Shown here in pieces: positions 1,046-20,527 of a DNA stretch of 20,556 nt. The notes beneath the pieces are model-generated. The model worked only from the letters and a program-made list of their open reading frames with translations, had not been told where the DNA came from and did no database searches. Position 1 is the stretch's first letter, and every line of letters starts with the position of its first letter. The stretch lies in the NCBI GenBank assembly GCA_022664555.1, contig GCA_022664555.1_4839.2; one strand, 5' to 3'. The DNA is from Escherichia coli. GTDB lineage: Bacteria; Pseudomonadota; Gammaproteobacteria; Enterobacterales; Enterobacteriaceae. The translations under genes and the position numbers were made by a program.

Positions 1046-1297
1046 ATGATATGCGCGTTTGATCAAGAATTTTATAAAAAGGTCAATATTCTAAAACTTG
1101 TCATGTCTGGAACTAGTTCGAAAGAAGTATCAGAAATTTATTGTATTTCACAGGCCAGGGTGAGCCAGATTTTGAGGGAAACTATAGGGTTACTTTGCCC
1201 AGAGATAGAAATTAAGCGCGTCAACAAAAAGTTCATTGATGAAAATTATTATACAGTAAAAGCCAAAATAAAGTGTTGGGAGAATAAGCATGTATAA
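1046..1297 (+). CDS. Small HTH DNA-binding protein (sigma-70 region-4 / NUMOD1-like helix-turn-helix)
   Basis: ATG at 1046 preceded by GAGGAGG. HTH-like segment SSKEVSEIYCISQARVSQILRE. The ORF lies in a visibly AT-rich island compared with its flanks. Confidence 0.55.
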   Translation: MICAFDQEFYKKVNILKLVMSGTSSKEVSEIYCISQARVSQILRETIGLLCPEIEIKRVNKKFIDENYYTVKAKIKCWENKHV

Positions 1298-3187: not shown

Positions 3188-3501
3188 AAATTTATTTTCC
3201 TGGCCAAAAAGTGCCTTCTGAAGTGCAGAAGGTCACAATCACAGGCTACCGGAAAGGGGATCCATATCTGCGCTTCTCCTCTCCATGTATCGTGAAGCAA
3301 ACTAAAACGGGTTATTATATCAGGCCGATTGTGTTGATGGGCTGTGTAATGACGTTCAGAGCTTCCTGTGAACACGTTCTTATACAAGGAAGCCCGAACA
3401 TCGAAGGTGGAGAAACCCACACGAACTGCAAGCCGATTATCCCGACATGGTTGATTATTGGTGTGCTTTCCGTTTTAGCTCTGAAAGGAATATTGTCATG
3501 A
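3184..3501 (+). CDS. Hypothetical protein (105 aa) with hydrophobic C-terminus
   Basis: ATGA overlap with the preceding stop. C-terminal TM-like segment [18 protein letters not shown]. Confidence 0.45.
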
Positions 3502-3827
3502 AAAAGCCGCGTATTACAGGACACCAACTCTTGGTTCTCTACGGGATAGAGAACTTTGAGAAAGGTCATTACCGTTATGTTGAATGGTACTTGCATCCCA
3601 TATCCTGTACCAATGAGAAGTGCTACACGGTGTGTACGTTCAAGTTATTCACGATTTCTTGTGGTTTCACCTCCGTCAAAGGCAACCCCCGCACTGGGGC
3701 TTCCCTGCTCGCCAAGGGGTTGATCGAACCAGCTGGCTCAATGGTTCATGACGGTTCTTACGTGAACTGGCCGAACGCTGAGGTGACGTTCTATCGCCTG
3801 ACCGAACTCGGTAAATCTTATCTCTGA
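3498..3827 (+). CDS. Hypothetical protein (109 aa), possibly winged-helix-like
   Basis: ATG at 3498 (AAAGGA upstream), ATGA overlap with the preceding stop. The ORF-track start at 3447 looks like an upstream extension. Confidence 0.5.
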   Translation: MKKPRITGHQLLVLYGIENFEKGHYRYVEWYLHPISCTNEKCYTVCTFKLFTISCGFTSVKGNPRTGASLLAKGLIEPAGSMVHDGSYVNWPNAEVTFYRLTELGKSYL

Positions 3828-3897: not shown

Positions 3898-4212
3898 ATG
3901 ACCCCATTAAAAGAAATGTATGAGCGCCTGGCTGAACTACAGGCGAAGGAAAAGCGCTTCTCAGAAGAAGAGTCTGAAATCTCCGAGCTGAACACTTTGA
4001 TCGCCACTCGCGAGAAGTACCTGCAGCGCTACATTAATCACCCACCGCGCATGGTAGACCGCGTCAGCACTATCATGGACCTGGATGAAGTTACTCCTGG
4101 CAAAGAAATCATTGTCAGGGAAGTCCATCAGATGGTCGCCATGGGTCAGATCTTTGGTCGTGCAGACCAAGACGACATGATGTTCCTCCTTGAAAAGAAA
4201 CTGGTGATGTGA
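3898..4212 (+). CDS. Hypothetical protein (104 aa)
   Basis: ATG at 3898 with AAGAGGA 7 nt upstream; stop TGA overlaps the cd start. Confidence 0.55.
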   Translation: MTPLKEMYERLAELQAKEKRFSEEESEISELNTLIATREKYLQRYINHPPRMVDRVSTIMDLDEVTPGKEIIVREVHQMVAMGQIFGRADQDDMMFLLEKKLVM

Positions 4213-4718
4213 TGGCTATCAAACCCCGTATGTTGTTTGCGCATATGCGCTCGGCTCATGCATACGCTCTGTCCAGCTATGCCCAGCGCCTGAAGGTCGG
4301 CTGTGTTATCGTTGACCCGCGTGTTGACCAGCCCCTGTCTATCGGTTGGAACGGGACTGCTCCTGGCGCTCCTAATGTCTGTGAGAAGGAAGTAGACGGT
4401 CAACTGGTATATGTGGGTGTTATCCACGCCTAGGATAATGCTCTGATCAAACTCCCCCAGCACACCGAAGACTGTTGTGGCCTGGTGATGTTTGTCACTC
4501 ATAGTCCATGCCCAGAGTGCACCCGTCGTATTATCGACAGTGGCAAGATCGCTAAAGTGTTCTATGACCGACAATATAGTATCACAGACTGTATTATTGA
4601 AATGCTGGCTGCTGGAATTGAAGTATATCGCATGGTCGATCAGGTTGTTGTAGTCCAGCATTCTGTGAAGAACGGCGAACTGGTATCCACCCCTGTTTTA
4701 GTGAACCCTGACAAATAA
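4212..4718 (+). pseudogene. cd: dCMP deaminase (cd) interrupted by an in-frame amber codon (TAG at 4431-4433) at the catalytic-Glu position
   Basis: Single 168-codon frame. N-part VGCVIVD...SIGWNGTAPG...VIHA, then TAG, then DNALIKL...THSPCPEC. This matches the deaminase zinc motifs H-A-E and PCxxC, with the stop where E is expected. ORF-track fragments are 4209..4433 and 4485..4718, in the same frame. Confidence 0.75.
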
Positions 4719-5351: not shown

Positions 5352-5962
5352 GGTAAGAGCAGTCCATCATCCCGCTCCGTTGGGGCGGGTTTAATCTCCT
5401 TCCGCATCTGTTCTTTCAAGAATCTGACACGCTCGGCATGTCGGCGATCTTGCATCTCCATATCCCGTTTCTTTTTCGACTTCAATTCGAACTGTTTACG
5501 AACATCCGGATCTTCACCTGGAACAAGATGCTCTTCGGTCCAGATAATGAACTTCCAGTTCTTCTTGGCACACAGTTCGCGGGTGGCCTCCCACTTGGCA
5601 GAATTGACCAACCAGGTTCGCATCGCATTGTTGAACGTCGACTCCTTCATGTTCGGAGTCTTCTTCGGCTGCTTGATCTGGTCTTTGGGCTTGATCTCAA
5701 TGAGGGTGACCTGTAGTTCCTCTTGCCCTTCACGGCGCGTCCAGACCTTGAGGTCCATGAAGTAACGATGGGTGCGCCCGTCTACTGGGGAAATGTAAGG
5801 GATTACGGTCTCCTCGTTTTCCCAGAAAATGATCGCAGGATTAGTATCACAAAACTTGAAAGCCACAAGTTCCAAAGAAGATCGAAATACGATTTTGTTT
5901 GGGTTGCCTTTGTACTTTTTAGGATTGACAGGAACATATTTCCCTTGAAGATATTGCGCCAT
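5348..5962 (-). CDS. Hypothetical protein with PD-(D/E)xK-like nuclease motif and lysine-rich C-terminus
   Basis: ATG at 5962 with GGAGGA upstream, overlapping the seg stop (TAATG). Motif ...PYISPVDGRTHRYFMDLKVW... (D ... D-L-K). Confidence 0.5.
   Translation of the reverse strand: MAQYLQGKYVPVNPKKYKGNPNKIVFRSSLELVAFKFCDTNPAIIFWENEETVIPYISPVDGRTHRYFMDLKVWTRREGQEELQVTLIEIKPKDQIKQPKKTPNMKESTFNNAMRTWLVNSAKWEATRELCAKKNWKFIIWTEEHLVPGEDPDVRKQFELKSKKKRDMEMQDRRHAERVRFLKEQMRKEIKPAPTERDDGLLLP
5371..5395. terminator. Possible bidirectional terminator hairpin between convergent genes
   Basis: cccgctcc-gtt-ggggcggg stem-loop followed by TTTAAT. It lies in the last codons of the minus-strand ORF, so the assignment is tentative. 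Confidence 0.3.
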
Positions 5963-6699
5963 TATGCTTTCCTCCAACCTTTATGCTGTAAATTGCGACC
6001 CTTGTTTACGTGGCCCATGGAGCCTTCGCTCAAACCGATTTCTTTACAAAATTTTGCCAGGTTGACAATTGTCACCAACTGCCCTTCTGGGTTGATGAAT
6101 TTGAATTCTCGGGAATTGGCCTCGGATATTCTCTCGCGCCCTTCTTTCGTCACAGCCCCTTTGCAATTAGAGTAATCTACCAACCCCAATTCAACAAGTC
6201 GCTTATTTGAATTTCTTATTTTGTCCCTGGTTTGCTGGTCTACAACACAACCAAATCTTGGGTTATTTTCTCCCGAACGATCTTTTCCAAACCAAAAATT
6301 TCTAGAACCGTTTAGCGCTCTTGAACGATAAATTCTTTCCAGTTCTTCTTTTGGTTTAGAGAGTAATGTGTTCAGAGCTTTGGTAGACGCCTGCTTTCTA
6401 GCCTCTGGGTCTGAATTGATGTGGTCGAAGGATCCACATCCACCCAGCGTCAAATTGTATGTATCTTCCCTTTCTATAAAATCTTTGGTTACTATTCTGG
6501 ATTCTTCTAGGTACATTTGTTCCTGAGTTTCACACTCCAATAAAATATCCTTTCTGAAGTTTTCAACTCCATGTTTCTTGATTGCTCTGGTTATCATAAC
6601 ACCAGAACCCATATAGCCATCATCCGGTTCGCCTTTGTGGGCACCAACATATATCTTACCGTTTAGAAGATTGGTTATCTGGTAGACGAAGTATCTCAT
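5962..6699 (-). CDS. GIY-YIG homing endonuclease (Seg-like)
   Basis: N-terminal YFVYQITNLLNGKIYVGA ... GYMGSG ... E ... N matches the GIY-YIG catalytic module. C-terminal half has NUMOD-like DNA-binding repeats. GC is visibly lower than in the flanks. Confidence 0.8.
   Translation of the reverse strand: MRYFVYQITNLLNGKIYVGAHKGEPDDGYMGSGVMITRAIKKHGVENFRKDILLECETQEQMYLEESRIVTKDFIEREDTYNLTLGGCGSFDHINSDPEARKQASTKALNTLLSKPKEELERIYRSRALNGSRNFWFGKDRSGENNPRFGCVVDQQTRDKIRNSNKRLVELGLVDYSNCKGAVTKEGRERISEANSREFKFINPEGQLVTIVNLAKFCKEIGLSEGSMGHVNKGRNLQHKGWRKA
5962..6699 (-). mobile_element. Free-standing homing endonuclease gene inserted between nuclease and baseplate genes
   Basis: Same ORF as the Seg-like CDS; intergenic placement and compositional difference from neighbours. 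Confidence 0.55.
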
Positions 6700-7729: not shown

Positions 7730-8284
7730 ATGAAATATTTTGAGAAGTTTCCACTTGTTTGGCATCAATTGCAAGATGTCAAAGAGAATCATCAGTTGTT
7801 GTTACAGAACTTAACGCGCCGGGTGATGATCTTACAGAAAATTAAGGACATCGAAGGGCTTCTCCTGCCGTATACGATCCAAGAGGGGGAAACCCCAAGG
7901 TCTTTCGCAGAACGCGTTTACGGATCCTTCGAGTTGTTTTGGATACCTTGTCTGATAAACGGCATCATGGACATCAATAAGGACTGGCCAAAACCGGAAC
8001 GTCGTATTGTTGAAGAACTGACTGCAGACTATGGCATCGATGGTATGTGGGATACAGCCTATTATGTAGACCAGTTCAACAATGTGACCGACGCCCGTGC
8101 TATCAAATTTGCATATAACCTAGACCTGGATGAGCCGTCCATAATTGCTAACTATGGTCTGACGGCAGTTTCATATCATGATGATGCAATCAGTAAGAAT
8201 GAAGCCAAACGGAACATCCGAGTACTCGACCCAGATTATGTGTCTTCGTTTGTCAATCAGCTGGAGCAGGAGTTGGCGAAATGA
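7730..8284 (+). CDS. Small baseplate hub-associated protein (gp26/gp28/gp51-like by position)
   Basis: 184 aa; ATG at 7730 with AAGAGAGGA upstream; ATGA-coupled to the next gene. Assignment is by synteny only. Confidence 0.45.
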   Translation: MKYFEKFPLVWHQLQDVKENHQLLLQNLTRRVMILQKIKDIEGLLLPYTIQEGETPRSFAERVYGSFELFWIPCLINGIMDINKDWPKPERRIVEELTADYGIDGMWDTAYYVDQFNNVTDARAIKFAYNLDLDEPSIIANYGLTAVSYHDDAISKNEAKRNIRVLDPDYVSSFVNQLEQELAK

Positions 8285-9669
8285 TCGAAAACAGAGAGAC
8301 CCAAGACGGTATTGTAACACCGTCAACAACATTTGACCTGAAGTATATGGCGATCCTCCCTCATACACCCCAGGGTGGAACACCAACGCCATATGATCTG
8401 ACGGCGTTGTTTGAGGAGTTCAACGTCTTCCAGGATCTGGGTCTTGAAGGGAAGTCATCTCCATCACTTACAGCCAATGTCTTGATAAAAGAAGTGTGTG
8501 ACATTCTTGACACAATGCCTATCTTGGGTGGTGAAGAAGTTGTGGTGTCATTCAAGAGTCCGGCGGCCTCGGAATACCCCACTCTCTCCCTGCGCGTAGC
8601 GCGTGTTGGGCGCGTAGCTGATGAGTCCAACAGCTCGTCCAAGAAAGCATTCTGGTTGCACATGGTGACCACCGATGCCTATAAGGACAGCATGATCCGA
8701 TGCTCCCTCGGTCTTGACGGTTCGTATTCTGACATGGCGAAGGCAATCTTCAATCAGTTGGAGTCGCGCACCAAGTTCGAAGACATCGACCCGTCGTATG
8801 GAATTCAAGAGCGGTTCGCCACCCCGCTCTGGCCTGTGCTGCGATCTATTGATTATATGGCGAGCCGTTCTTATGACGAATTGTTCATGCCATTCGTGTT
8901 CTATGAAGACTTCAATGGCTATCACTTCAAGAGCCTGACGACGTTGTTCAACCAGGGTAGCCAGTCATTGACAGCAGAAGAGAAGCAGGAACTAGCTCAG
9001 CAGAACAAGTTGTTCCGTGATCCTCAGGACGCGCCGCTCATGCAGGATAACAACTTCAACTCTGAGCGCTTTATGCGCACGATCATCAAGGCAGAGAAGA
9101 AGCTGGCGCGTGACCAGTTCATGGCAAACTACCGCGATGTCCTGGCGGTGAACGAGCGCGTCTACGACTTTGAGACCAAGACAGTCACCCCAACACAGCG
9201 CATCTATACTGAGTGGTTTGCAGAGACGGCTCACCTTGATCCGTTCCCGATGTTCTCAGATGAATTCAATCGTCAGAACGTCCGTTACATTGAAGCCCAG
9301 CCGGATGGAGCGGAGCAGATTGATTATGCTCGTCGTGTTATCAACTTCAGTCTTGCCAGCACTGTGATGCGCGTGTTGCTCGTTGGTGATAACCGCCTGA
9401 ACGTCGGTCAGGTGTTCTACGTCGAAGACCAGTCCAACCGTCCTAAGAAGAACGAAAACCTGGCAGAGTTAAGTAAGCTATCGACAGGCCACTATATCGT
9501 GACCAAAGTGCGTCACAAGATTTCCCGCCTAACCAAAGATTATCAGTGCATCGCTGAGATTGCCAAGGACAGTTTGCTGGAGCAGGTGCTTCCACCTCAG
9601 ACCAATCAGACAACTGCTTCCACCACTACTCCTCAGGCGATTGAGAAAGGCCAAGCACAGAAGGTTTAA
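8281..9669 (+). CDS. Baseplate hub subunit, gp27-like (tentative)
   Basis: 462 aa. Segments PLWPVLRSIDYMASRSYDELFMPFVFYEDFNGYHFKSLTTLFNQ and GDNRLNVGQVFYVEDQSN resemble remembered gp27 hub motifs. Immediately upstream of the tape-measure gene. Confidence 0.55.
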   Translation: MIENRETQDGIVTPSTTFDLKYMAILPHTPQGGTPTPYDLTALFEEFNVFQDLGLEGKSSPSLTANVLIKEVCDILDTMPILGGEEVVVSFKSPAASEYPTLSLRVARVGRVADESNSSSKKAFWLHMVTTDAYKDSMIRCSLGLDGSYSDMAKAIFNQLESRTKFEDIDPSYGIQERFATPLWPVLRSIDYMASRSYDELFMPFVFYEDFNGYHFKSLTTLFNQGSQSLTAEEKQELAQQNKLFRDPQDAPLMQDNNFNSERFMRTIIKAEKKLARDQFMANYRDVLAVNERVYDFETKTVTPTQRIYTEWFAETAHLDPFPMFSDEFNRQNVRYIEAQPDGAEQIDYARRVINFSLASTVMRVLLVGDNRLNVGQVFYVEDQSNRPKKNENLAELSKLSTGHYIVTKVRHKISRLTKDYQCIAEIAKDSLLEQVLPPQTNQTTASTTTPQAIEKGQAQKV

Positions 9670-9680
9670 CGAGGTGACCC

Positions 9681-11627
9681 ATGGCACAGGAAGCAACGAA
9701 CAATGATGTTGTCAAAGTTCTAGACAAGATCAAGGCGGAGATGATGCAGCGCAAACAACTCCGCGCTCAGAATGAAACCAACAAACAGCTTGACCGGATG
9801 AACAAGAATCTGGCCAAGCTGGAATCTGCCACTAAACAGGGCACCAAGGCCGAGTCCAAGCCATTTGAAATCCGTATCCCGACAGTCAATGAGATCGTCA
9901 TGGGATTCGCTCGCATGTCTCCGATCTTCACCCGCGACTTCAGCGTATGGATGAAGGATACTGTCGATGTGGGTAACGAAGGTAATCGGGAACTGGAGAA
10001 TATCGCAGGCAAGATTGACCGCCTCGGTGAGATCACCCGCATGCCAACAGATGACACGTCCCTGGAGTATCTTAACCTGATCTCAGACCAGCTGAAGTCT
10101 GCCAATGATGACACCCTCAAGCGCATGGACGAGCAGAGTGTGTCTCTGGTCCGCGTGGGATCATTCTTGAACATGATCGACGGAGTGATGATCGAGGTTC
10201 GTGACAATGTTGCTGAACTGAAAAAGAACTCCGATGACACCCTTACTCGCTTGTCTAGCATTGAAAACAAGATTGGACGCACGGGCGGTCATATCGTTGG
10301 AGTGTTGACACGCATCTTTGATGAAGACCAGAAGTGGCGTGAGAAGGACGAGATGCGCCGTGGGGAAACAGACAAAGAAACGGGTGGTCATCCTCAGGCG
10401 GGTTCTGTTATACCCAAAGACGATGACCAGAAAGACGATTCCTCCGGTATCGGGGCTGCTGTGGCGGCCATGCTTGGCCTGAATGCACTGAAGGGCTTCT
10501 TGCTCAAGCCGTTCAAGATCATCGGTGGTGTTGTCGGGACTTTCCTCGGCATGTTCTCCAAGCTGGGAGAAGGTATCACCAAACTTCTGGGTCCATTTGG
10601 GAAGGTGTTCAAGTTCCTGAAAGTCGGCCCACTGGCTCTCCTGTCTATGATCTGGGACTTCGGTAAAGGCTTCATTGATGCGAAGGAGATCCTAGGTAAA
10701 GGTGCTGTCACGATAGTTGACCGAGTACGGGCGGGGATATCAGAACTGGTTGGTGGATTTGGTGATCTATTTGACTGGGTGTCCAAGATCTTTGGCTTTG
10801 ATACCGAGGCGGGTGAAACCCTGCGCAAATACACCCTCATGATCACAGAGGCTCCCGCTCGTTGGCTGAATGGTATTATCGACTGGATTAGCAACGACTT
10901 GTTTGCAGGGATCGGGAGAGACACGTCTCTTACGGATATCCCTGGCAAGTTAGCAGACAACCTACAGTCCGAGTTGATAAAGCTGGTAGACTGGATCACA
11001 GGGGGTATCAGTAGTGTGATCGACGAGGGCATGGGTGTGGCCAACAAGGTCATTGACGATATCAAGAAGGGATTTGCCGAAAATGTGAAGAAACCTTTCT
11101 TCAACATGCTGAACACAATCACCAATGCGATGTTCGATATCGTTGACAAGTTCGTCAGCATCATCCCTGACGCTCTGGGTGGACAGGCTGCGAAGCAGAA
11201 GATGGATGAGGCTCGCCAGTCTATGCTGATTGACACTGATGAGAATCCATCTCCTAATGTGACAGAGACCCAGCAGCCACAGACGCCAGCACAACCGAAC
11301 ATCGATCCACAAACGCTGACTCCAATACCTTCTGGTGCGTCTTCGGATGACAAGAATATGACTAATGACCGCACCTCTCAGCTGAAAGCTGCGTATGGTT
11401 CTATCGGGGGTGGTACTCTGGGCGGGGCCATGCCATCACAAGGGAGGGCGCTGTCTAATATTGAGCAAGTACAAGGCGGCTATTCACCGCCTCCGGCCAG
11501 CGTCGTGATGCCAGTACAGCAGAATGTGGATGCTTCTAAGAGGATCAACACGACCAATAACTTCAACAGCTCATATCTTGAGCCTGAGAACAAAACAGAT
11601 AATTCCCGCATCCTGTGGGAATGGTAA
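9681..11627 (+). CDS. Tail tape measure / baseplate hub protein, gp29-like
   Basis: 648 aa. N-terminal coiled-coil-like region, a long Gly-rich hydrophobic segment (GIGAAVAAMLGLNALKGFLLKPFKIIGGVVGTFLGMF...) and a Ser/Pro-rich C-terminus. ATG at 9681 with GAGGTGA upstream. Confidence 0.6.
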   Translation: MAQEATNNDVVKVLDKIKAEMMQRKQLRAQNETNKQLDRMNKNLAKLESATKQGTKAESKPFEIRIPTVNEIVMGFARMSPIFTRDFSVWMKDTVDVGNEGNRELENIAGKIDRLGEITRMPTDDTSLEYLNLISDQLKSANDDTLKRMDEQSVSLVRVGSFLNMIDGVMIEVRDNVAELKKNSDDTLTRLSSIENKIGRTGGHIVGVLTRIFDEDQKWREKDEMRRGETDKETGGHPQAGSVIPKDDDQKDDSSGIGAAVAAMLGLNALKGFLLKPFKIIGGVVGTFLGMFSKLGEGITKLLGPFGKVFKFLKVGPLALLSMIWDFGKGFIDAKEILGKGAVTIVDRVRAGISELVGGFGDLFDWVSKIFGFDTEAGETLRKYTLMITEAPARWLNGIIDWISNDLFAGIGRDTSLTDIPGKLADNLQSELIKLVDWITGGISSVIDEGMGVANKVIDDIKKGFAENVKKPFFNMLNTITNAMFDIVDKFVSIIPDALGGQAAKQKMDEARQSMLIDTDENPSPNVTETQQPQTPAQPNIDPQTLTPIPSGASSDDKNMTNDRTSQLKAAYGSIGGGTLGGAMPSQGRALSNIEQVQGGYSPPPASVVMPVQQNVDASKRINTTNNFNSSYLEPENKTDNSRILWEW

Positions 11628-12287
11628 TCAGATTCCGTGGGCTTGTATTAGCTCACGGAGTCTCTGTTTTGAATATGTTGTATCCTCATCCGGAACCACA
11701 GCATTCGTCTTCCTGAGCAAGAACGCCTCCGAGTTCCAATAGATGTCATCACGCAGAATCGTATCGTACAGATGAATGAAACCAACGATCTTGTTCAGAC
11801 CGACAAGGAACCAAATCGGGAACTTCTTGATGATGATGTCTGTTAGCAACGGCGGATGACGTGTACCCGTCCCCTTGATGTACTCAATGAAGGTGCAGTT
11901 GCGCTCCCTTATGGCAGGGATCATCTCCCGCTCGAACTCCTCTAGGAAGTTATATGTGAATTTCTCTTACAGCTTACGGTATTCATCATAATTGGCCTGA
12001 GCCTGGCGTGTAAGCAATGTCGTCACCCAGGTCTTGGGTGATTTGATGAAGTTGGCAATGATGTAGTTCTCTACCACTTCACCCTGTGATGACTCGAACC
12101 GACGGGCAAGGCGAGCAAACTGTTTGCACACGGCCTCCTTCGCCAAGAACGTCTCGAACTTGTAATTCATCGGCCCATACAAGCTGTAATCGAAGTCCTT
12201 AGTGGTGAAGTGCAGCTTGATCGCCATGAATACACAGTAAACGTTGAACGCCCGCTCGAACTCCATCTTCTGCCACTCTGTTAGCAT
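11628..12287 (-). pseudogene. 59: gp59-like helicase loader interrupted by an in-frame ochre codon (TAA at 11967-11969)
   Basis: ORFs 11967..12287 and 11628..11924 are in the same frame, separated by one TAA and 14 sense codons. N-part VYCVFMAIKLHFTTKDFDY...NFIKSPKTWV and C-part IYWNSEAFLLRK resemble gp59 N- and C-domains. Combined length is about 219 aa. Confidence 0.5.
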
Positions 12288-12535
12288 TTGCGTTCCTCTT
12301 CTTTAATAAATTGCAATAACTCTTCCATCAGCCCTTTCTTCTTGATGAACTGTAACACCAGGATGAAGCGACGGAAGGAGCGGGGGACAACACGATAACC
12401 CTTCGCCCAGTAGTTCACAACATTAGAACAATCCAATAAACGAGCCAGCCCAGATTGTGACACCCCGAGGCTCAGCAGAACCTTGTACATGTACTTCTTG
12501 TCATTTACCGGAAGCTCTTTCATTCTTAAACTCAT
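12281..12535 (-). CDS. Small XRE/Cro-like HTH protein
   Basis: HTH-like GVSQSGLARLLDCSNVVNYWAKG. Start uncertain (ATG at 12535 or 12523). Overlaps the gp59-like start by 7 nt and contains its RBS. Confidence 0.45.
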   Translation of the reverse strand: MSLRMKELPVNDKKYMYKVLLSLGVSQSGLARLLDCSNVVNYWAKGYRVVPRSFRRFILVLQFIKKKGLMEELLQFIKEEERKC

Positions 12536-12758
12536 GATACTTGTCCGCTAATGTCTTATAATATTTGTTAGGATTATACTCCTGTTTGGAATAGTGAAGA
12601 GTAAGGGAAGCACTCAGACCTAGGATAATCACGACAACGAGCGCCTTGTGGTTATTGATCTCGGGAATAGCTATCCACACCAGCAGCATCACAAGCGAGC
12701 TGATAATCAAGGACAGCAAGAACGTTAATGCAATCACCAATGCGAATAGCTCGTCCAT
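12501..12758 (-). CDS. Small membrane protein (two hydrophobic segments)
   Basis: ATG at 12758 with AGAGGTG upstream. LFALVIALTFLLSLIISSLVMLLVWIAI and ALVVVIILGLSASL. Confidence 0.45.
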   Translation of the reverse strand: MDELFALVIALTFLLSLIISSLVMLLVWIAIPEINNHKALVVVIILGLSASLTLHYSKQEYNPNKYYKTLADKYHEFKNERASGK

Positions 12759-12988: not shown

Positions 12989-14419
12989 TCACCCATTATC
13001 CTTCTCCAACAGGAATGCGATGTTTTCGATGTACGCTTTCTGTATCGCATAGACTTCATCCAGTGTGTTGGCCACTTTCTTGTCAATGCGGACTTCTACA
13101 AGGCGAGGTAGGAACAAAGACTTCATCGCATCATCTGTCTTATCCTGTACGCCATTGGAGAGCACTGCGGCGATCTTGCCAATGTAGTCGCCCTGGTTCT
13201 CCCACATATGGCGTCTCAGCTCATCTGAGATCCCTGATACGCCAACAACAAGCAGGCTGTCGGAAGTTTTACAAATCAGTGAGCCAAAAGTCTTGGCGTG
13301 TTTACCCTTCTTGTCGGCCTCGTTGAAGCCCACGATTTCAAGGTCACACTCAACCTCCATCTTCAGCTTCAGACCTTCAGAAGAAGTACCATCTTCCCAA
13401 GGCATGTCGGCGGCCTTACATATCGTACCTTCTTCTTTGCGAGCCAGCGCGTCTTTGAAGTGGTCGACGGCTTCGGCAAATGAGTGAACAACACGAGTTT
13501 CCTGAACCTGAACCAGACCGTCGTCTTCACAAAACATTTGCATGATCATGTCGAAGCGGGTTTCATACGGGGTGTCCACGCGCTGGGCGTTGAACCAGTT
13601 GTCGTACGGGACAACATCCCACACCCGGTAGATCACCCGATAACGATCTTCTAGGGGTTCTCCTGTCTGAATCACGCTGTTGAGTTTACCGTTACCGACA
13701 GCACGAGGCAGGATGGTATTCGACTTGAGGTCAACAACGAGAAGTTCACCATGGAACACACTCTCACCAATCCCCGCATCGTAGATGATGTCCTTGAACA
13801 CCAGTGACAGGTTGTCAACCGAACCGCCTGCGATAAGGGAACCGGATCGAGAGCGAATCTCAGGCTCTTTATTGTACCGACATATGATGTTGGCGAACAT
13901 GCCGTCTGACTTCAGCTGGCTGTAGACAACACGCTTGAAGTCCATCTTCTTCAGCAGGTCAATCGTCATGTTGTCATAACGATGATACGGAAGAATGTTG
14001 ATCAGGCGTCCAGTGCCTCCGGCGGCGTTGAATGCAGCGTTGATGCCCTTCTCAGCGATACCCGCCTTGATATCACGGTCTAGGATCATCTGAATGAGTT
14101 CGTGGTATTGGGGATCCATCTTCAGGGCGACAGAGGCCAACAGGGCATCAGCCTTTTGGCCACCGACAAGGCGCTGCGCCATCTGGTCGAGGACGCCATA
14201 GACTTCGCTAATGTCATCAGTCTTCTCACGGACGAGCATGCGAGGGTACGCGCTGAGCTTCAACTCAGTCCGATAGAACGACGTCATTGGGTCATAGACA
14301 TACTGCAGGAAGTCTGCCAAGTCTGGGTTGTTCTTGAATGCTTCGGTCAGCACGGCTTTCTTCGCATTGCTGCCTTTGGTTTCGCGAAGTCGGTGGACTG
14401 TTTCAAGGATAGGGATCAT
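12989..14419 (-). CDS. 30: ATP-dependent DNA ligase (T4 gp30-like)
   Basis: 476 aa. Adenylation motif KSDG (YSQLKSDGMF), HGELLVVD, EGTICK and C-terminal OB-like region. ATG at 14419 with GGAG upstream. Confidence 0.9.
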   Translation of the reverse strand: MIPILETVHRLRETKGSNAKKAVLTEAFKNNPDLADFLQYVYDPMTSFYRTELKLSAYPRMLVREKTDDISEVYGVLDQMAQRLVGGQKADALLASVALKMDPQYHELIQMILDRDIKAGIAEKGINAAFNAAGGTGRLINILPYHRYDNMTIDLLKKMDFKRVVYSQLKSDGMFANIICRYNKEPEIRSRSGSLIAGGSVDNLSLVFKDIIYDAGIGESVFHGELLVVDLKSNTILPRAVGNGKLNSVIQTGEPLEDRYRVIYRVWDVVPYDNWFNAQRVDTPYETRFDMIMQMFCEDDGLVQVQETRVVHSFAEAVDHFKDALARKEEGTICKAADMPWEDGTSSEGLKLKMEVECDLEIVGFNEADKKGKHAKTFGSLICKTSDSLLVVGVSGISDELRRHMWENQGDYIGKIAAVLSNGVQDKTDDAMKSLFLPRLVEVRIDKKVANTLDEVYAIQKAYIENIAFLLEKDNG

Positions 14420-14532: not shown

Positions 14533-14874
14533 TTATTTCTTCGGGGGTTCAATTGAGGTGAAAGAATCCTTCCAACTCTTGAATTTTTCAACCAGGGCTT
14601 CTTTACCCAGCTTGTCATTTGACACGCTGTGAATATAGGCAAATGCTCCATAGCCGGATCCTGGCATAGCCTTGCAGATGCGCAGACTGACCAAAGAATC
14701 TCCTACGGAAACAAGATAGTGGTCACGACGATTGTTCGGGGCATAATGGTTGTCGTGAAACTTGTCAATAACAACACAGTTCTGAGGTTCGACGTCAATC
14801 GGTAGCCCGTTGGCTTCGGATCCGCCGCGCCCAAGTACGCAGCCTGGGAATAATGTTTCTAAGAGTGTAGTCAT
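14533..14874 (-). CDS. Hypothetical protein (113 aa)
   Basis: ATG at 14874 with AAGGA 7 nt upstream; preceded by a ~250-nt non-coding region. Confidence 0.55.
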   Translation of the reverse strand: MTTLLETLFPGCVLGRGGSEANGLPIDVEPQNCVVIDKFHDNHYAPNNRRDHYLVSVGDSLVSLRICKAMPGSGYGAFAYIHSVSNDKLGKEALVEKFKSWKDSFTSIEPPKK

Positions 14875-15127
14875 GGACTGTTCCTTCTTTAAGTTCCCAA
14901 GAATTAAATGGGTGAATAGTTTATTGAATTATTTGTTGTGAAACCCAGAGCCTTGTGGACTTCTTCACGATTTTAATTTCGGCCTGAGCCTCTGTGCGAT
15001 TAATCTAGCGCTTGTGATGTCGGGAGAGGGCTTTGTAAACAAGCCTTGGCGTCAATGGCATCGATTAGACAACGGATCTCAGCGCATCAGAGGCTTGCCC
15101 AACAGCCAGTTGAAATACTTGCGCATG

Positions 15128-15540: not shown

Positions 15541-15657
15541 TCATTTCTTCCTCTTAAAGGGGACGACCAGGGCTATGATGAGAAGCATAGCTGTAATCAT
15601 CCCACATGCTATCAGACCGAAGGCGAACGACTTCAGAACAAACTCAATCAAATTCAT
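15541..15657 (-). CDS. Very small hydrophobic membrane peptide (38 aa)
   Basis: Hand-translated: MNLIEFVLKSFAFGLIACGMITAMLLIIALVVPFKRKK. ATG overlaps the stop of the 368-aa gene (ATGA). Below the ORF-track size cutoff. Confidence 0.35.
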   Translation of the reverse strand: MNLIEFVLKSFAFGLIACGMITAMLLIIALVVPFKRKK

Positions 15658-16760
15658 AATTTCCTCAATTTGGCTCTGGTGACCTGAGTTTGTTTAACGC
15701 CGTTGTACTCAGTCAGTTCTTTGACACGACCACGGATGATCATATCGCCCTGCAAGAACTCTGTATCCATATAAGAGGTCTTCCAGGTAATTGTATTGCC
15801 TTCTGCTGTTTTGAAAGTAAACAGGTAGCTATCACCATATTCATTGGAGAAGAGGAAGGTGCGCTTGTCGAACCTGACTTGCACTTCCAGCATTTCACCG
15901 ACTTCACCCACCCATTTGTTCTCCGCCTTGCGGTCAGTACGAGGACGATGGATGTAATCGTAATACTTCTTGGCACCCCAGCGGACTGTGTTGTTATCCT
16001 TGATGAGGTGATAGCCGGGTTCACACATGCGTTTCAGGCGAACATTGAACTCATTAGATTCGGACAGCGCACTGATGAAGAGCTTCATATGGTACATTTC
16101 CGACTCGGCATCTTCACGGTATTCGTGTGCCTTGTTTACGAAATACTCTTCATCGGAACCTGCTTTTGGTTTCTGGTGAGACCGGACATAGCCCAGGACT
16201 TTGTCAAACAGTTCAGACTTGATATCCACGCCTGCCAACATCACCTGGAAGCATGCGCGCAGGAAACTGTGGGTGTCGACGAAGCGCTCATTTTGGACGC
16301 GATATATACCCTCTGGGTCGTCCTCGTCTGGCATGAAGAACTCTTGGATTTCCAGATAGTAAGACATAATCGCGTCAAGCGATTTCTGATGAGGTACATA
16401 ATGATGCATACAGGTGCTACCAATCAGCATCTGGGTGTGCGTTTCCTCATTTTCAATCACATACGTGTTCTTGCGACGGATGACTAGATTGCAATGCTGA
16501 CACCAAGAGACGTTCTCTGTCTCGAAGCGACGGATGAAGTCAGGATTGATGTTGTCAGACAGGCGGTTAAGAATAACTTTTGGATATTCGTGATTGAACT
16601 GACCGATGATTTTCCAGCCACCATAAGAGACGGGGCGGTCAATGCCTTCGCCTTCGAGAGTAACAGGTTTCCACCAGTGAGTAAGGATCTCACCAGTGAA
16701 GTCGCGGGTGTGGGTTTTGAAGGGTTCACCATAAGTCACAGTCGGAAACGGAACACCCAA
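15654..16760 (-). CDS. Hypothetical protein (up to 368 aa) with Cys/His cluster and OB-fold-like C-terminus; start codon uncertain
   Basis: Long ORF with no ATG in the first ~117 codons (the track start is TTG at 16760). Cluster WCQHCN...STCMHHY. C-terminal beta-rich segment VGEVGEMLEVQVRFDKRTFLF...ITWKTS. Confidence 0.55.
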   Translation of the reverse strand: MGVPFPTVTYGEPFKTHTRDFTGEILTHWWKPVTLEGEGIDRPVSYGGWKIIGQFNHEYPKVILNRLSDNINPDFIRRFETENVSWCQHCNLVIRRKNTYVIENEETHTQMLIGSTCMHHYVPHQKSLDAIMSYYLEIQEFFMPDEDDPEGIYRVQNERFVDTHSFLRACFQVMLAGVDIKSELFDKVLGYVRSHQKPKAGSDEEYFVNKAHEYREDAESEMYHMKLFISALSESNEFNVRLKRMCEPGYHLIKDNNTVRWGAKKYYDYIHRPRTDRKAENKWVGEVGEMLEVQVRFDKRTFLFSNEYGDSYLFTFKTAEGNTITWKTSYMDTEFLQGDMIIRGRVKELTEYNGVKQTQVTRAKLRKL

Positions 16761-16900
16761 CCTTTCGGCAGTGCGCTAGAGCTTCTTCAGTCTCTAAACT
16801 ACAAAAAATTCATTGTATAACGGAATATTGAAAGTTTTTAAGTTCATTTCCAGACTCATGATGTAGTTGTAACTCTTCAATACAGATTAAATATTAGGCG

Positions 16901-17703: not shown

Positions 17704-19128
17704 CTAGAATTTCCAATTATTGACCGTTTGGGCTTTCTGCTCATCGCTGGCAGCAGCCCCGGACTTGTTGAGGTCATGTTTGATGTGTACGTTTTCGACA
17801 TATTTGGCCTCAGCCTCAGTCAGGTCCTTCTTAACTTCGTTCCAGTCCAGGTCAAACAGGATCTGTTTGTCTTGGTCCATACCAAACAGGAATGATTTCA
17901 GCTTCTGCTTGTTGGCATAACGGTTCTTGAGTATTGAGGCTCGGGCTTTCTTGACCGCCGCCAGTTCGTCAGGAGCATAGAATGCCATGATGAAGTCGGC
18001 CACCTTCGGAATACCGATAGCATCTGCCAGATCACTGATTCCACCATCAGTGCTATTCTGATTCTCACGATTGAACTGCATACCAGTCCATACAGGGACA
18101 TCAAACTCAAATCCCAGCGCACGAAACTCACGAGCCACAGACGTGTAATAGACGTTCGTGTTCTGCATCAGGTGGGAAGGCAGGCGCGAGGAAGCAGCTT
18201 CACCAAGATAGTCAATAACGATAACATCAGGAGCACGACCGGTCGCCTGGATGTACTCAAGGATGTCACGGCGGAATAAACCTGTGTGTCCAGCGCCGGA
18301 CGGATATTCCTTGATGACGATATCGCCCTTGGGTGCGCCATCTTGGCGACTGCGGAGCTTCTCTATCGTTGCAATATACTCGTGCCTTGTGAGTTTCTCT
18401 AAAGACTCAAAGTCGCGACGCATGATACGGGCATCAAGACGGTGTCGCCAGACGTTCTCGGCCACTTCGAGGGTGAAGACAAAGACGTTCAGCCCCTGCT
18501 CCGAGTACCCTGCGGTCAGGTCAATCAGCGTTGTGGTCTTACCTGCGTTGATCGCACCTGTTACGATGTTCAGTGTCTTCTTACCAACGCCACCACGTGT
18601 CGCCTTATTGAAGATCTCAACTGCGAACGGGATCTTGGCCTCGTTGGAGTTCATGTGGTCATACTGCTCTGCCGCCATCTCCCAATAGATGTGACCGAGG
18701 TATGAATCAAATCGGATCGCCAGGGCTTCCTGCAACAGGGTCGGGATGTTGTTCATCTCGTCCTTGCGCTTCTCGTCACCGTAGATGTTGACGGCGGTCT
18801 TGATTGCGTTGTGTACAGCCTTTTGCCGCGCCCAAGCCTCGGTTTCCTTCGCCAGCCACTCTTCATTGAAGGTGTTGTCGTTGATGTTCTCTAGGGCAGA
18901 TACCGCCTGGTCAAACACATATTCGTTCAGCTTTGTCCGTTCAAGAATGATAGACAGTGCTTCGATAGACGGGCGGGCATTATACTCTGAGGCATAACTG
19001 TCAATCAGGCCAAAGATGACCTTTTCGCCTTCGTTGTCAAAATAATCGGCTTTCAGGTACGGCAGGATCTTTCTTTGATAATCTTCATTGTAAATCAACT
19101 GTGAAAGCACGACAGATTCGAGTAACAT
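17704..19128 (-). CDS. 41: Replicative DNA helicase, DnaB-like (T4 gp41-like)
   Basis: Walker A GAINAGKTTTL, Walker B-like VIVIDYLGEA, DnaB-type N-terminal domain. First ATG at 19128 (the track start at 19134 is TTG). Stop is TAG. Confidence 0.9.
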   Translation of the reverse strand: MLLESVVLSQLIYNEDYQRKILPYLKADYFDNEGEKVIFGLIDSYASEYNARPSIEALSIILERTKLNEYVFDQAVSALENINDNTFNEEWLAKETEAWARQKAVHNAIKTAVNIYGDEKRKDEMNNIPTLLQEALAIRFDSYLGHIYWEMAAEQYDHMNSNEAKIPFAVEIFNKATRGGVGKKTLNIVTGAINAGKTTTLIDLTAGYSEQGLNVFVFTLEVAENVWRHRLDARIMRRDFESLEKLTRHEYIATIEKLRSRQDGAPKGDIVIKEYPSGAGHTGLFRRDILEYIQATGRAPDVIVIDYLGEAASSRLPSHLMQNTNVYYTSVAREFRALGFEFDVPVWTGMQFNRENQNSTDGGISDLADAIGIPKVADFIMAFYAPDELAAVKKARASILKNRYANKQKLKSFLFGMDQDKQILFDLDWNEVKKDLTEAEAKYVENVHIKHDLNKSGAAASDEQKAQTVNNWKF

Positions 19129-19134
19129 TGGCAA

Positions 19135-19464
19135 CTACCCCACCAAAAATTTATTGTATTCCTGAGCATTACGCTGCATGAGGGTTACAAGGATATCCCC
19201 TGTCACCTCAGTGAACAAGTCATTTTCTTTCAAATTCACAAACATCAGACGTAATGGTTTCTTCAATATATCGGTCACAAAGGACAGGCGGGGTTCGCCG
19301 TCCACTTCGTTGATGGCAACCTTGCCGAACCGGAATTGAACGCCACGGAATTTGCCAGAAGTGATCTTGATGATCGCCAGCTGATCAGCACCAGGGTCGA
19401 TGATTGTGTAGTTATTGGGGGAGTTGCCTCCCCCTGCGTTGTCACTCGGATGTGTTGATAACAT
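19135..19464 (-). CDS. Conserved hypothetical protein between uvsX and gene 41 (position of T4 gene 40)
   Basis: First ATG at 19464 (the track start at 19515 is GTG); overlaps the uvsX 3' end by 23 nt; stop TAG abuts the gene 41 start region. Confidence 0.5.
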   Translation of the reverse strand: MLSTHPSDNAGGGNSPNNYTIIDPGADQLAIIKITSGKFRGVQFRFGKVAINEVDGEPRLSFVTDILKKPLRLMFVNLKENDLFTEVTGDILVTLMQRNAQEYNKFLVG

Positions 19465-20527
19465 GGTCCATTTGCTCCAGCATGTTCGCAGGCATAACAG
19501 TACCGTTAGAAACACCGAACATCTTCTTCACGTCATCGGCGAAGTCGACATTCTCCAGAAGCGGATACCAGAAATCATCATCCATCTGACGCTTCTGATA
19601 TTTCTTTTCCTTCTCAGGATCGAAGCCGCCCTTGGCTGTACGCACATACCAGCCGGAAGACGGCATATCAACGTAACCCAGAGCACGAGCGATCTCAAGC
19701 AGGCCGCTCCAACGGTCAATGCCGCCGTCGTACAGCACTGTCACAGGGAGTTTGGCTTTCTCTTTGACATGACGGCCTTTCATGATGCCGATGTTGAAGT
19801 TCCAGCCCAGCAGATCTTTGTCTTCCTTCACCTGAGAACGGGTGATGAACCAGATCAGGTTGGACGACAGGAAGCCCTGCTTGCCGCCTTTGATGTTAGG
19901 CTCGGCATACTGGTTGCCGATCTCATCGTAATAGGAGTTGATCCACACCAGCACGAGGTCTTTGCTGTTGATCTCAGGGGTGATCACGCGCCAGAAGCTG
20001 TTGAGGGCACGGGCGCGGGTCATATCCTGTGTATCTTTCCCAGCGATGGCATCTTCAACTTCTTTCGTAGAAGGCAGCTGGCTGATGGAGTCAATGAAGA
20101 CGATAACATGGTCGCCTTTCTTGACTTCCTGAAGGATTTGCAACAGGCGGATCTTGGTCTGCTCAACGTTGTCAATCGGCACGTACAGGACGCGATCCAT
20201 GTCAATACCCATAGACGTCCAGTAATCGGCGTTGGCACCTTTCTCAGAGTCCGCGAAGATACACAGGGCATCAGGGAACTTGTCCATGTACGCCTTGACA
20301 TCTACCAGACCGAACATCGTTTTGAAGGTACGGGAATCACCCACCATCATCTTGATACCGGAGATCAGGCCGCCGTCAATACGCCCGGACCAGGCGATGT
20401 CGATCAGGGGAATACCAGTAGAACAGATGATAGACGGTTCCAGAGCGTCTGATTGGGACAGCACTGAAGCCTGGTCGTCGTGTTTCTTGGCAACCTTCAG
20501 CATGCGGTCCATTAATGAACTGGCCAT
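19442..20527 (-). CDS. uvsX: RecA-like recombinase UvsX
   Basis: 361 aa. Walker A-like GDSRTFKT, Walker B-like HVIVFIDSIS, RecA-fold order. ATG at 20527. Confidence 0.9.
   Translation of the reverse strand: MASSLMDRMLKVAKKHDDQASVLSQSDALEPSIICSTGIPLIDIAWSGRIDGGLISGIKMMVGDSRTFKTMFGLVDVKAYMDKFPDALCIFADSEKGANADYWTSMGIDMDRVLYVPIDNVEQTKIRLLQILQEVKKGDHVIVFIDSISQLPSTKEVEDAIAGKDTQDMTRARALNSFWRVITPEINSKDLVLVWINSYYDEIGNQYAEPNIKGGKQGFLSSNLIWFITRSQVKEDKDLLGWNFNIGIMKGRHVKEKAKLPVTVLYDGGIDRWSGLLEIARALGYVDMPSSGWYVRTAKGGFDPEKEKKYQKRQMDDDFWYPLLENVDFADDVKKMFGVSNGTVMPANMLEQMDHVINTSE

What the first reader, a model, noticed from the sequence alone, without database searches (positions are those of the whole stretch)
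11628..12287. gp59-like helicase-loader gene split by a single in-frame TAA at the domain boundary
Two minus-strand ORFs (11967..12287 and 11628..11924) share one frame and are separated only by TAA (11967-11969) plus 14 sense codons. Together they give about 219 aa, the size of T4 gp59. Each half resembles one gp59 domain by remembered sequence features. The downstream half has its own ATG (11924) with GAGGAG about 12 nt upstream, so the two domains might be made as separate polypeptides. This is the second nonsense-interrupted DNA-metabolism gene in the window and uses a different stop codon from cd.
Basis: partly seen in the sequence, partly recalled or inferred. Interest (0 to 1): 0.75.

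Follow-up and report, generated by a model that had tools for sequence, protein, structure and literature searches.

The report
Helicase-loader gene broken by probable sequencing error
The phage's gene-59-type helicase-loader gene really does carry a stop codon in this sequence, but the stop is one of many clustered, unselected G-to-T type changes seen only in this assembly, so it is most likely a base-calling error and not a biologically split gene.

Summary
Two minus-strand ORFs (11967-12287 and 11628-11924) share one frame, separated by TAA and 14 sense codons. Together they are the 219-codon DNA helicase loader of an Agtrevirus-like Ackermannviridae phage. An AlphaFold model of the intact orthologue superposes on T4 gp59 (1C1K, TM 0.71).

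The split looks like an artefact, not biology. Every relative examined has TAC (Tyr107) at that codon, and all 29 homologue clusters are single proteins of 219-229 aa.

The stop is a private G>T change on the + strand, in a 25-nt patch with two other private changes to T. One of them turns invariant Asn109 into Lys.

Across the window, private transitions look selected: 138 synonymous, 33 non-synonymous, 0 stops. Private G>T/C>A changes look random: 18, 44 and 4 stops, against about 5 stops expected by chance.

Eight AT-ward, transversion-dominated patches total 305 nt, or 1.5% of the window. They hold all four in-frame stops, which hit cd, gene 59 and a 397-aa gene.

The proposed restart Met122 lies inside the first C-domain helix. 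The GAGGAG upstream of it is ordinary conserved coding sequence.

Verdict: an ordinary gene 59 homologue with a probable consensus error, or less likely a recent unselected lesion. Interest is low.

The parts
11628..12287 (-). Gene 59-type DNA helicase loader: 219 codon positions, interrupted in this sequence only
   Evidence: It is 98.7% identical in DNA to the intact 660-bp 'DNA helicase loader' CDS of phage ZQ1 and its relatives. tblastn with the fGh-Ecl02 protein covers residues 1-219 with one internal stop. It matches PHROG 269, and the orthologue model has the 1C1K fold.
11967..11969 (-). In-frame TAA at codon 107, caused by a private G11967T change on the + strand (TAC>TAA on the coding strand)
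   Evidence: The codon is TAC (Tyr) in ZQ1, PC3, SKML-39, LIMEstone1, the nine syntenic relatives L005-L013 and four other public contigs L014-L017. Tyr107 is at least 90% conserved across 25 homologues.
11943..11967 (.). 25-nt patch of three window-private changes, all to T on the + strand (A11943T, G11961T, G11967T), with no transitions
   Evidence: G11961T turns invariant Asn109 into Lys. The signature matches the other AT-ward patches that hold the other three stops.
11970..12287 (-). N-terminal fragment ORF, residues 1-106, corresponding to the gp59 N domain
   Evidence: It matches PHROG 269 profile positions 1-99 at E = 1.7e-29. The Pfam T4_Gp59_N match is only E = 0.08, 13.8 bits against a cut-off of 25, aligning residues 15-103 to profile positions 5-89 of 93.
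11925..11966 (-). 14 sense codons (108-121) left untranslated between the TAA and the next ATG
   Evidence: They encode the first half of predicted helix 110-128 and include invariant N109 (Lys in the window), F110 and Y112, plus near-invariant N113, F114 and E119.
11628..11924 (-). C-terminal fragment ORF, Met122 to Ile219, covering most of the gp59 C domain
   Evidence: It matches PHROG 269 profile positions 119-210 at E = 1.6e-20. GAGGAG lies 12 nt upstream of the ATG, but the same sequence is present in relatives with intact genes.
4411..4447 (+). AT-ward patch in cd (dCMP deaminase). It includes TAG at 4431-4433, which replaces the Glu of the H-A-E motif
   Evidence: It shows the same error-like signature and supports the window-wide explanation.
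16778..16854 (-). AT-ward patch at the 5' end of the 397-aa conserved hypothetical gene: 14 transversions, no transitions, and two TAG codons (codons 18 and 24)
3580..3660 (+). The largest AT-ward patch: 16 transversions and 1 transition, giving W>C twice, G>C twice and C>F in a 112-aa hypothetical protein

Best explanation
The locus is an ordinary single-polypeptide gene 59 (helicase loader) of an Agtrevirus-like Ackermannviridae phage. The TAA at codon 107 is most likely not in the phage's DNA. It looks like a base-calling or consensus error, G read as T on the + strand. It is one of about 50 AT-ward miscalls concentrated in eight short patches of 81 nt or less. These are probably places where the consensus rested on error-rich read ends or on oxidatively damaged template.

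Shown here:
- the change is private to this sequence;
- it lies in a patch of transversions only, all to T;
- this class of change is unselected across the window.

Inferred: the physical cause, meaning miscalling, low coverage or damage. No reads are available.

If the true codon is TAC, the phage makes a normal 219-aa loader. By homology with T4 gp59, that protein would bind forked DNA and load the gp41-type helicase, encoded at 17704-19128, onto ssDNA coated with the phage single-strand-binding protein.
For: 1. **The stop is private.** The codon is TAC in 4 aligned orthologues spanning 84-99% DNA identity, in the nine closest syntenic relatives and in 4 further IMG/VR and metagenome contigs. 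The exact 43-mer carrying TAA is absent from IMG/VR. Neither half-protein is on record in the 153-billion-gene index. All 29 homologue clusters are 219-229 aa.

2. **Private G>T/C>A changes look unselected.** There are 313 window-private substitutions.
   - Transitions: 138 synonymous, 33 non-synonymous, 0 stops. That is 81% synonymous against 34% expected at random (p = 1e-36).
   - G>T/C>A: 18 synonymous, 44 non-synonymous, 4 stops. That is 27% synonymous against 20% expected (p = 0.12), with 5.0 stops expected.
   - Fisher test between the two classes: p = 2e-14.

3. **The changes are clustered.** 58% of gaps between G>T/C>A events are 30 nt or less, against 10% under random placement (maximum 25% in 2000 simulations).

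4. **The patches hold all the stops.** Eight patches total 305 nt, or 1.5% of the window.
   - Inside: 54 private changes, 49 of them to A or T; 6 synonymous, 38 non-synonymous, 4 stops.
   - Outside: 183 synonymous, 71 non-synonymous, 0 stops.

5. **The patches have strand polarity.** Changes go mostly to T at 3580-3660 and 11943-11967, and mostly to A at 14862-14907 and 16778-16854. This is expected if each patch comes from reads of one orientation.

6. **The errors are substitutions only.** There are only 2 private 1-nt indels and no frameshifted genes.

7. **The spectrum matches a documented Illumina miscall pattern.** G is mistaken for T first; in later cycles A and C are also mistaken for T, because of T accumulation (Kircher et al. 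2009, PMC2745764). Runs of consecutive sequence-specific miscalls are also documented (Nakamura et al. 2011, PMC3141275). Oxidative G>T library artefacts are described in the title and abstract of PMC3616734, listed.

8. **The same patch destroys an invariant residue.** Asn109 becomes Lys.
Against: - No reads, quality values or coverage are available, so the artefact itself is inferred, not seen.
- The three genes hit by stops are plausibly dispensable, by analogy with T4 where cd is non-essential and gene 59 mutants are leaky (my own knowledge). Real nonsense mutations in them could therefore survive for a while.
- The gene 59 patch is small, with only three changes. On its own it would not be statistically compelling; the argument rests on its likeness to the larger patches.
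- I delimited the patches after seeing the data. I used substitution type and spacing to do so, not coding effect.
- An assembler would normally out-vote isolated bad reads, so the explanation needs very low local coverage or a systematic error.
Confidence: 0.78

Rival explanations
1. The TAA is real but recent and unselected. On this reading the sequenced genome is a defective or lab-passaged variant, or was hit by oxidative G>T mutagenesis. Gene 59 is then a fresh nonsense allele: it makes only the 106-aa N-terminal fragment, the loader function is lost, and helicase loading falls back on slower loader-independent assembly.
For: The sequence does contain the stop. The change is a single transversion of the kind 8-oxoG produces. 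All four stops hit genes that are non-essential or leaky in T4, or of unknown function (cd, gene 59, the 397-aa ORF). No stop hits the helicase, ligase, UvsX or any structural gene.
Against: - Real oxidative mutagenesis scatters G>T changes. It does not place 14 transversions in 77 nt or 16 in 81 nt with single-strand polarity.
- The same class of change also causes radical replacements in the baseplate hub (G72V, W73C) and in ligase (G164V, G297C). A viable phage should not tolerate many of these.
- No other public sequence shares any of these changes.
Confidence: 0.17
2. One reading: gene 59 is functionally split. The N domain ends at the TAA, and the C domain is made separately by initiation at ATG 11924 using the upstream GAGGAG. 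The two pieces then work as a two-subunit loader.
For: The stop falls in the inter-helix loop 107-109 near the N/C junction. An ATG with an SD-like GAGGAG 12 nt upstream follows 14 codons later. Each half on its own still matches the loader profile.
Against: - The split is not conserved in any relative or homologue.
- The GAGGAG...ATG is ordinary coding sequence, identical in phages with intact genes.
- Met122 lies in the middle of helix 110-128. The 14 lost codons carry six invariant or near-invariant residues, so the C piece would be a truncated domain.
- A 12-nt SD spacing is longer than the usual optimum (my own knowledge).
- The stop shares its signature with the changes that disable cd at its catalytic Glu and put two stops in a third gene.
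Confidence: 0.03
3. Programmed readthrough or stop-codon recoding: the phage, or a suppressor tRNA it carries, decodes TAA and TAG as sense codons, so full-length proteins are still made.
For: There are four in-frame stops in three genes within 20 kb. Ackermannviridae genomes do carry tRNA genes elsewhere (my own knowledge).
Against: - The stops replace different amino acids, Tyr once and Glu three times, and use two different stop codons.
- Relatives have sense codons at all four sites.
- No tRNA gene lies in the window.
- All other genes in the window end at normal stops and align end to end with their orthologues.
- The stops sit among radical missense changes of the same mutational type.
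Confidence: 0.01

Closest known systems
Bacteriophage T4 gp59 helicase loading (assembly) protein, PDB 1C1K
   Same: Both have nearly the same length (219 against 217 residues) and a two-domain all-alpha architecture. The AlphaFold model of the intact orthologue superposes on 1C1K over 210 columns with TM 0.71 in both directions, and no other PDB chain comes close. The gene sits in a replication and recombination module with a gp41-type helicase, UvsX and a DNA ligase.
   Different: Identity in the structural alignment is only about 16%. Pfam T4_Gp59_N scores below its gathering threshold and T4_Gp59_C gives no hit. A profile of 25 homologues finds nothing in PDB by sequence. No biochemistry exists for the Ackermannviridae protein. 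In this window the reading frame carries a stop at codon 107.
Intact 'DNA helicase loader' genes of Aglimvirinae phages (e.g. ZQ1 QVW27103.1, SKML-39 YP_007236232.1, LIMEstone1 ORF028 YP_007237350.1)
   Same: They are orthologues in the same position, convergent with the tape-measure-like gene and upstream of the small ORFs and ligase. DNA identity is 84-99%.
   Different: All of them are uninterrupted, with TAC at codon 107, AAC at 109 and CTT at 115. The window has TAA, AAA and CTA.
Truly split phage replication genes (e.g. T4 topoisomerase genes 39 and 60, or genes split by homing-endonuclease insertions)
   Same: Superficially alike: one ancestral protein encoded as two adjacent ORFs on the same strand.
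   Different: In true splits the interruption is an inserted element or a conserved arrangement shared by related phages, and each part has its own evolved start (my own knowledge). Here the interruption is a single private base change, no element is inserted, and relatives are intact. Relatives do carry a homing endonuclease next to gene 59, but it lies upstream of the gene and not inside it.
Illumina late-cycle miscalls (G to T, then A and C to T, from 'T accumulation') and oxidative G>T library artefacts
   Same: The spectrum is similar: G>T is dominant and A>T second, with their complements on the other strand. The changes are substitutions only, clustered at read-length scale, polar by strand and without any sign of selection (PMC2745764; PMC3141275; PMC3616734 listed).
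   Different: The sequencing platform, chemistry and coverage of this assembly are unknown. Errors of this kind normally get out-voted in a consensus, so very low local depth or a systematic effect has to be assumed.

Membership tests
T4 gp59 helicase-loader family | Two-domain all-alpha fold superposable on the T4 gp59 crystal structure (1C1K) | tested here: met
   The AlphaFold2 model of the intact orthologue P0001 (LIMEstone1 cluster) has pLDDT 90.5, pTM 0.83 and 14 helices. In Foldseek against PDB, the top hit is 1C1K with TM 0.71/0.71, 210 aligned columns and probability 1.00; the next hit has TM below 0.2. The model is of the orthologue, not of the window's truncated products.
T4 gp59 helicase-loader family | Sequence-profile membership: Pfam PF08993 T4_Gp59_N and the Pfam gp59 C-domain model | tested here: inconclusive
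   T4_Gp59_N scores E = 0.08, 13.8 bits against a gathering score of 25, though it aligns nearly end to end (residues 15-103 to profile positions 5-89 of 93). There is no C-domain hit. PHROG 269 'DNA helicase loader' matches strongly: 2.1e-62 for the full-length ZQ1 protein, 1.7e-29 for the N half and 1.6e-20 for the C half.
T4 gp59 helicase-loader family | Encoded alongside a gp41-type hexameric helicase and recombination proteins | tested here: met
   The window encodes a DnaB/gp41-type primase-helicase at 17704-19128 (-), UvsX at 19442-20527 (-) and a DNA ligase at 12989-14419 (-). Each is 97-99% identical to the annotated orthologues.
T4 gp59 helicase-loader family | Binds fork DNA and loads the helicase onto ssDNA coated with single-strand-binding protein | not testable with these tools
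   This is a biochemical property, described for T4 in PMC3012046. No data exist for this phage group.
Functionally split (two-polypeptide) gene | The interruption is conserved in related genomes | tested here: not met
   Every relative examined has TAC at codon 107. All 29 homologue clusters are single proteins of 219-229 aa.
Functionally split (two-polypeptide) gene | The downstream part has its own evolved start and forms a complete domain | tested here: not met
   The GAGGAG-N12-ATG is conserved coding sequence in intact genes. Met122 lies inside predicted helix 110-128, and codons 108-121, which hold six invariant or near-invariant residues, would be lost.
Stop-codon recoding or suppression | Consistent mapping of one stop codon to one amino acid, with a matching suppressor tRNA | tested here: not met
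   TAA replaces Tyr and TAG replaces Glu three times. There is no tRNA in the window. The rest of the genome was not available.
Sequencing or consensus artefact | Variants private to one assembly, biased in spectrum, clustered at read-length scale, and showing no purifying selection | tested here: met
   Private G>T/C>A changes fit random expectation (4 stops against 5.0 expected). Of 54 changes inside the patches, 49 are to A or T. All four stops lie within 1.5% of the window.
Sequencing or consensus artefact | Low quality, low depth or strand bias in the supporting reads | not testable with these tools
   No reads or source record could be found. The exact sequence is absent from IMG/VR, from the GTDB genome contigs and from the gene index.

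The most novel reading that the evidence does not exclude
The TAA is real, and the phage gets by with a two-piece loader: a free 106-aa HMG-like fork-binding N domain, plus a C fragment restarted at Met122 that still contacts the helicase and the single-strand-binding protein. That would show the two gp59 domains can work in trans.
Probability: 0.03. Interest if true: 0.45.

Novelty: not a real feature. Interest (0 to 1): 0.08.

Why it matters
The main value is as a caution. The window carries four in-frame stops in three genes. Read one at a time they look like interesting split genes or pseudogenes, but together they show the signature of a localized error process, concentrated in eight short patches covering about 1.5% of the sequence. 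Annotating these as split or degraded genes would propagate an artefact.

One modest positive result also comes out. The Ackermannviridae 'DNA helicase loader' escapes Pfam's gp59 models, but a confident structure prediction shows it to be a full-length, two-domain structural homologue of T4 gp59.

If the stop were real it would be only a fresh nonsense allele. Only the unlikely two-polypeptide reading would say anything new about how gp59 works.

Tried and rejected
- **Looking for the source record or a closer relative.**
  - The exact 43-mer spanning the TAA was absent from IMG/VR.
  - A degenerate 50-mer searched in IMG/VR and in metagenomes found four contigs, all with TAC, and none closer than 98.6%.
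  - Exact-protein look-ups of both gene 59 halves and of the homing endonuclease found nothing on record.
  - An exact 46-mer from the homing endonuclease gave no hits in IMG/VR or the GTDB genomes.
  - The origin and the reads therefore remain unknown.
- **Sequence-only tests of gp59 homology were weak.** Pfam was sub-threshold. phmmer of the ZQ1 protein against PDB gave only spurious SH2 hits at E about 0.1. A 25-sequence profile against PDB gave nothing. Only the structure comparison settled the homology.
- **Suppressor tRNA or recoding:** rejected.
- **An inserted element splitting the gene:** rejected. The alignment with intact orthologues has no gaps across the site.
- **Nanopore or 454-type errors:** unlikely, since there are almost no private indels.
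- **Promoter and terminator scan of 11400-12700:** nothing above the shuffle background that would suggest a separate transcription unit for the C half.

Full report
**1. The observation**

Read on the minus strand, 12287-11628 is one frame:
- an ATG ORF of 106 codons that ends in TAA (11969-11967);
- then 14 sense codons;
- then an ATG (11924) opening a 98-codon ORF that ends at 11628.

GAGGAG ends 12 nt before that ATG. The total is 219 codon positions. The description is accurate.

**2. What the locus is**

The window belongs to an Agtrevirus-like member of the Ackermannviridae (Aglimvirinae).
- Its closest database relatives are Escherichia phages ZQ1, LHE287, AV101, A221, YX22, PC3, PH4 and RPN242, Enterobacter phage fGh-Ecl02 and Salmonella phage CECAV_050.
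- These are about 97% identical over the window and 98-98.7% over this locus. None is identical.
- In all of them the corresponding 660-666-bp ORF is intact and annotated 'DNA helicase loader'.

The two window halves match opposite halves of PHROG 269 'DNA helicase loader' (N half 1.7e-29, C half 1.6e-20).

Sequence-based links to T4 gp59 are weak:
- Pfam T4_Gp59_N scores E = 0.08, below the gathering score, and there is no C-domain hit.
- Sequence and profile searches of PDB found nothing meaningful.

Structure settles the question.
- I collected 29 homologue clusters, all 219-229 aa, and aligned 25 of them.
- An AlphaFold2 model of the LIMEstone1-cluster orthologue is confident: pLDDT 90.5, pTM 0.83, 14 helices.
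- Its only credible PDB match is T4 gp59, 1C1K: TM 0.71 in both directions over 210 columns. The next hit has TM below 0.2.

So 'gp59-like' is right, and it holds for both domains.

The stop is at residue 107, in the three-residue loop between predicted helices 94-106 and 110-128. Extrapolating the weak Pfam N-domain alignment puts the end of that model at about residue 107. 'Near the domain boundary' is therefore fair.

**3. What the interruption is**

The alignment with intact orthologues has no gaps across the site. The window has TAA where ZQ1, PC3, SKML-39 and LIMEstone1 all have TAC (Tyr107).
- The nine closest syntenic relatives agree on TAC.
- So do four further public contigs from IMG/VR and metagenomes.
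- Tyr107 is at least 90% conserved in homologues down to 51% identity.

On the + strand the change is G11967T. Within 25 nt there are two more private changes, both also to T. G11961T converts invariant Asn109 to Lys, and A11943T is synonymous.

**4. The window-wide pattern**

A tblastn search of fGh-Ecl02 proteins against the window showed that gene 59 is not alone.
- cd has one internal stop.
- A conserved 397-aa hypothetical gene has two.
- The other 28 genes compared align without any internal stop.

I then listed every position where the window's base is absent from at least six (in practice 8-9) covering relatives. There are 313 such private substitutions.

| Class of private change | Synonymous | Non-synonymous | Stops | % synonymous: observed / random |
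|---|---|---|---|---|
| Transitions | 138 | 33 | 0 | 81 / 34 (p = 1e-36) |
| G>T and C>A | 18 | 44 | 4 | 27 / 20 (p = 0.12) |

- For G>T/C>A, 5.0 stops are expected at random, so the 4 observed fit chance.
- The two classes differ at p = 2e-14 by Fisher's test.
- Transitions are what real divergence under purifying selection looks like. G>T/C>A changes are indistinguishable from random hits on these coding sequences.

These changes are also strongly clustered. 58% of successive gaps are 30 nt or less, against 10% expected and a maximum of 25% in 2000 random placements.

The clusters are of two kinds.
- **Real divergence.** Some clusters mix many transitions with transversions in all directions and are mostly synonymous. 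Examples are 5816-5945, next to an inserted homing endonuclease, and 19425-20393 in uvsX.
- **AT-ward patches.** Eight short patches contain almost only transversions to A or T: 3580-3660, 4411-4447, 4573-4590, 7781-7796, 8495-8499, 11943-11967, 14862-14907 and 16778-16854.

The eight patches add up to 305 nt, or 1.5% of the window.

| Region | Private changes | To A or T | Synonymous | Non-synonymous | Stops |
|---|---|---|---|---|---|
| Inside the patches | 54 | 49 | 6 | 38 | 4 |
| Rest of the window | 259 | 132 | 183 | 71 | 0 |

(The remaining 6 changes inside the patches and 5 outside are intergenic.)

Further features of the patches:
- Each has a polarity. Changes go mainly to T on the + strand in some patches and mainly to A in others.
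- There are essentially no private indels.
- They include radical replacements such as W>C, G>C and C>F in a small protein, G72V and W73C in the baseplate hub, and a stop at the catalytic Glu of the H-A-E motif of dCMP deaminase.

**5. Explanation**

The simplest account is that the patches are consensus errors and the gene 59 TAA is one of them. Three published observations fit the spectrum and the clustering:
- In Illumina late cycles G is mistaken for T first, then A and C are also mistaken for T, because of 'T accumulation' (Kircher et al. 2009, PMC2745764).
- Consecutive sequence-specific miscalls occur in runs (Nakamura et al. 2011, PMC3141275).
- Oxidative damage during library preparation gives G>T artefacts (title and abstract of PMC3616734, listed).

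What is shown here is that the stop is private, clustered, polar and unselected. The physical cause is inferred, because I could not find the source record or its reads.

I put the readings at:
- artefact: about 0.78;
- real but recent and unselected nonsense allele: about 0.17;
- functional split: about 0.03;
- readthrough or recoding: about 0.01.

**6. Why the split-gene reading fails even if the TAA is real**

- No relative or homologue is split.
- The GAGGAG...ATG encodes E-E-F-E-R-E-M and is identical in phages with intact genes, so it did not evolve as a restart signal.
- The restart Met122 lies inside helix 110-128.
- The 14 orphaned codons carry invariant N109, F110 and Y112 and near-invariant N113, F114 and E119. 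This is among the most conserved stretches of the family.
- The promoter and terminator scan shows nothing above background inside the gene.

Recoding is also excluded. The four stops replace two different amino acids, use two different stop codons, and are sense codons in every relative. The window has no tRNA gene.

**7. Comparison with what is known, and verdict**

The gene is an already annotated orthologue of the Aglimvirinae helicase loader and a structural homologue of T4 gp59. The 'split' is most probably not a real feature of the phage. The structural confirmation of gp59 homology is a minor positive by-product. Interest is low at 0.08. The most novel reading still open, a working two-piece loader, has a probability of about 0.03.

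Noticed in passing
window 4212-4718 (+), stop at 4431-4433: The dCMP deaminase gene (cd) is interrupted by TAG. The stop falls exactly at the Glu of the zinc-deaminase H-A-E motif: relatives read CAC GCC GAG, the window reads CAC GCC TAG. Seven more private G>T/C>A changes lie in two patches, 4411-4447 and 4573-4590. The signature is the same error-like one as in gene 59.
   Followed up: partly
window 15654-16847 (-), stops at 16796-16794 and 16778-16776: A conserved 397-aa hypothetical gene has two TAG codons, at codons 18 and 24. It has no Pfam hit and is called 'RecT-like ssDNA annealing protein' in one relative. The stops sit in a 77-nt patch with 14 AT-ward transversions and no transitions.
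   Followed up: partly
window 3580-3660 (+), in the 112-aa hypothetical gene 3498-3827: This is the densest AT-ward patch: 16 transversions and 1 transition in 81 nt. It gives W>C twice, G>C twice and C>F, and lowers protein identity to relatives to 79%, against 96-100% for neighbouring genes.
   Followed up: partly
window 5962-6699 (-), with flank 5816-5945: A 245-aa GIY-YIG plus NUMOD3 (SegE-like) homing endonuclease ORF is inserted between the head-completion gene (gp4) and gp48. It is absent from the nine nearest relatives and from metagenome contig L016. It is about 76% identical over the region to the endonuclease F-LimII at the same site in Dickeya Limestonevirus phages. The adjoining 130 nt of gp4 is densely diverged, with mixed and mostly synonymous changes, as expected for a co-conversion tract.
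   Followed up: partly
relatives L002/L011 (PC3), L012 (CECAV_050), L013 (RPN242), L008 (A221), just upstream of gene 59; window equivalent about 12285: Several close relatives carry a homing-endonuclease gene of about 695 bp directly upstream of gene 59, overlapping its start. Their loader has a different, 2-aa-longer N terminus (MREYTDWEKMQ... against MLTEWQKME...). The window lacks this element.
   Followed up: partly
window 11630-11663 (+): A strong hairpin terminator (14-bp stem followed by a T run) for the convergent 648-aa tape-measure-like gene lies inside the last codons of gene 59 on the opposite strand. The same feature is annotated in LIMEstone1.
   Followed up: no
window 19425-20393 (-), uvsX and the upstream small ORF: A dense run of window-private changes, mostly synonymous third-position transitions, suggests this segment was acquired by recombination from a lineage not in the database. 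These look like real changes, unlike the AT-ward patches.
   Followed up: no
window 1046-1297 (+): An 83-aa ORF lies between Tk.4 and dexA. Among the close relatives inspected, only AV101 has it. It appears to be a small presence/absence gene.
   Followed up: no
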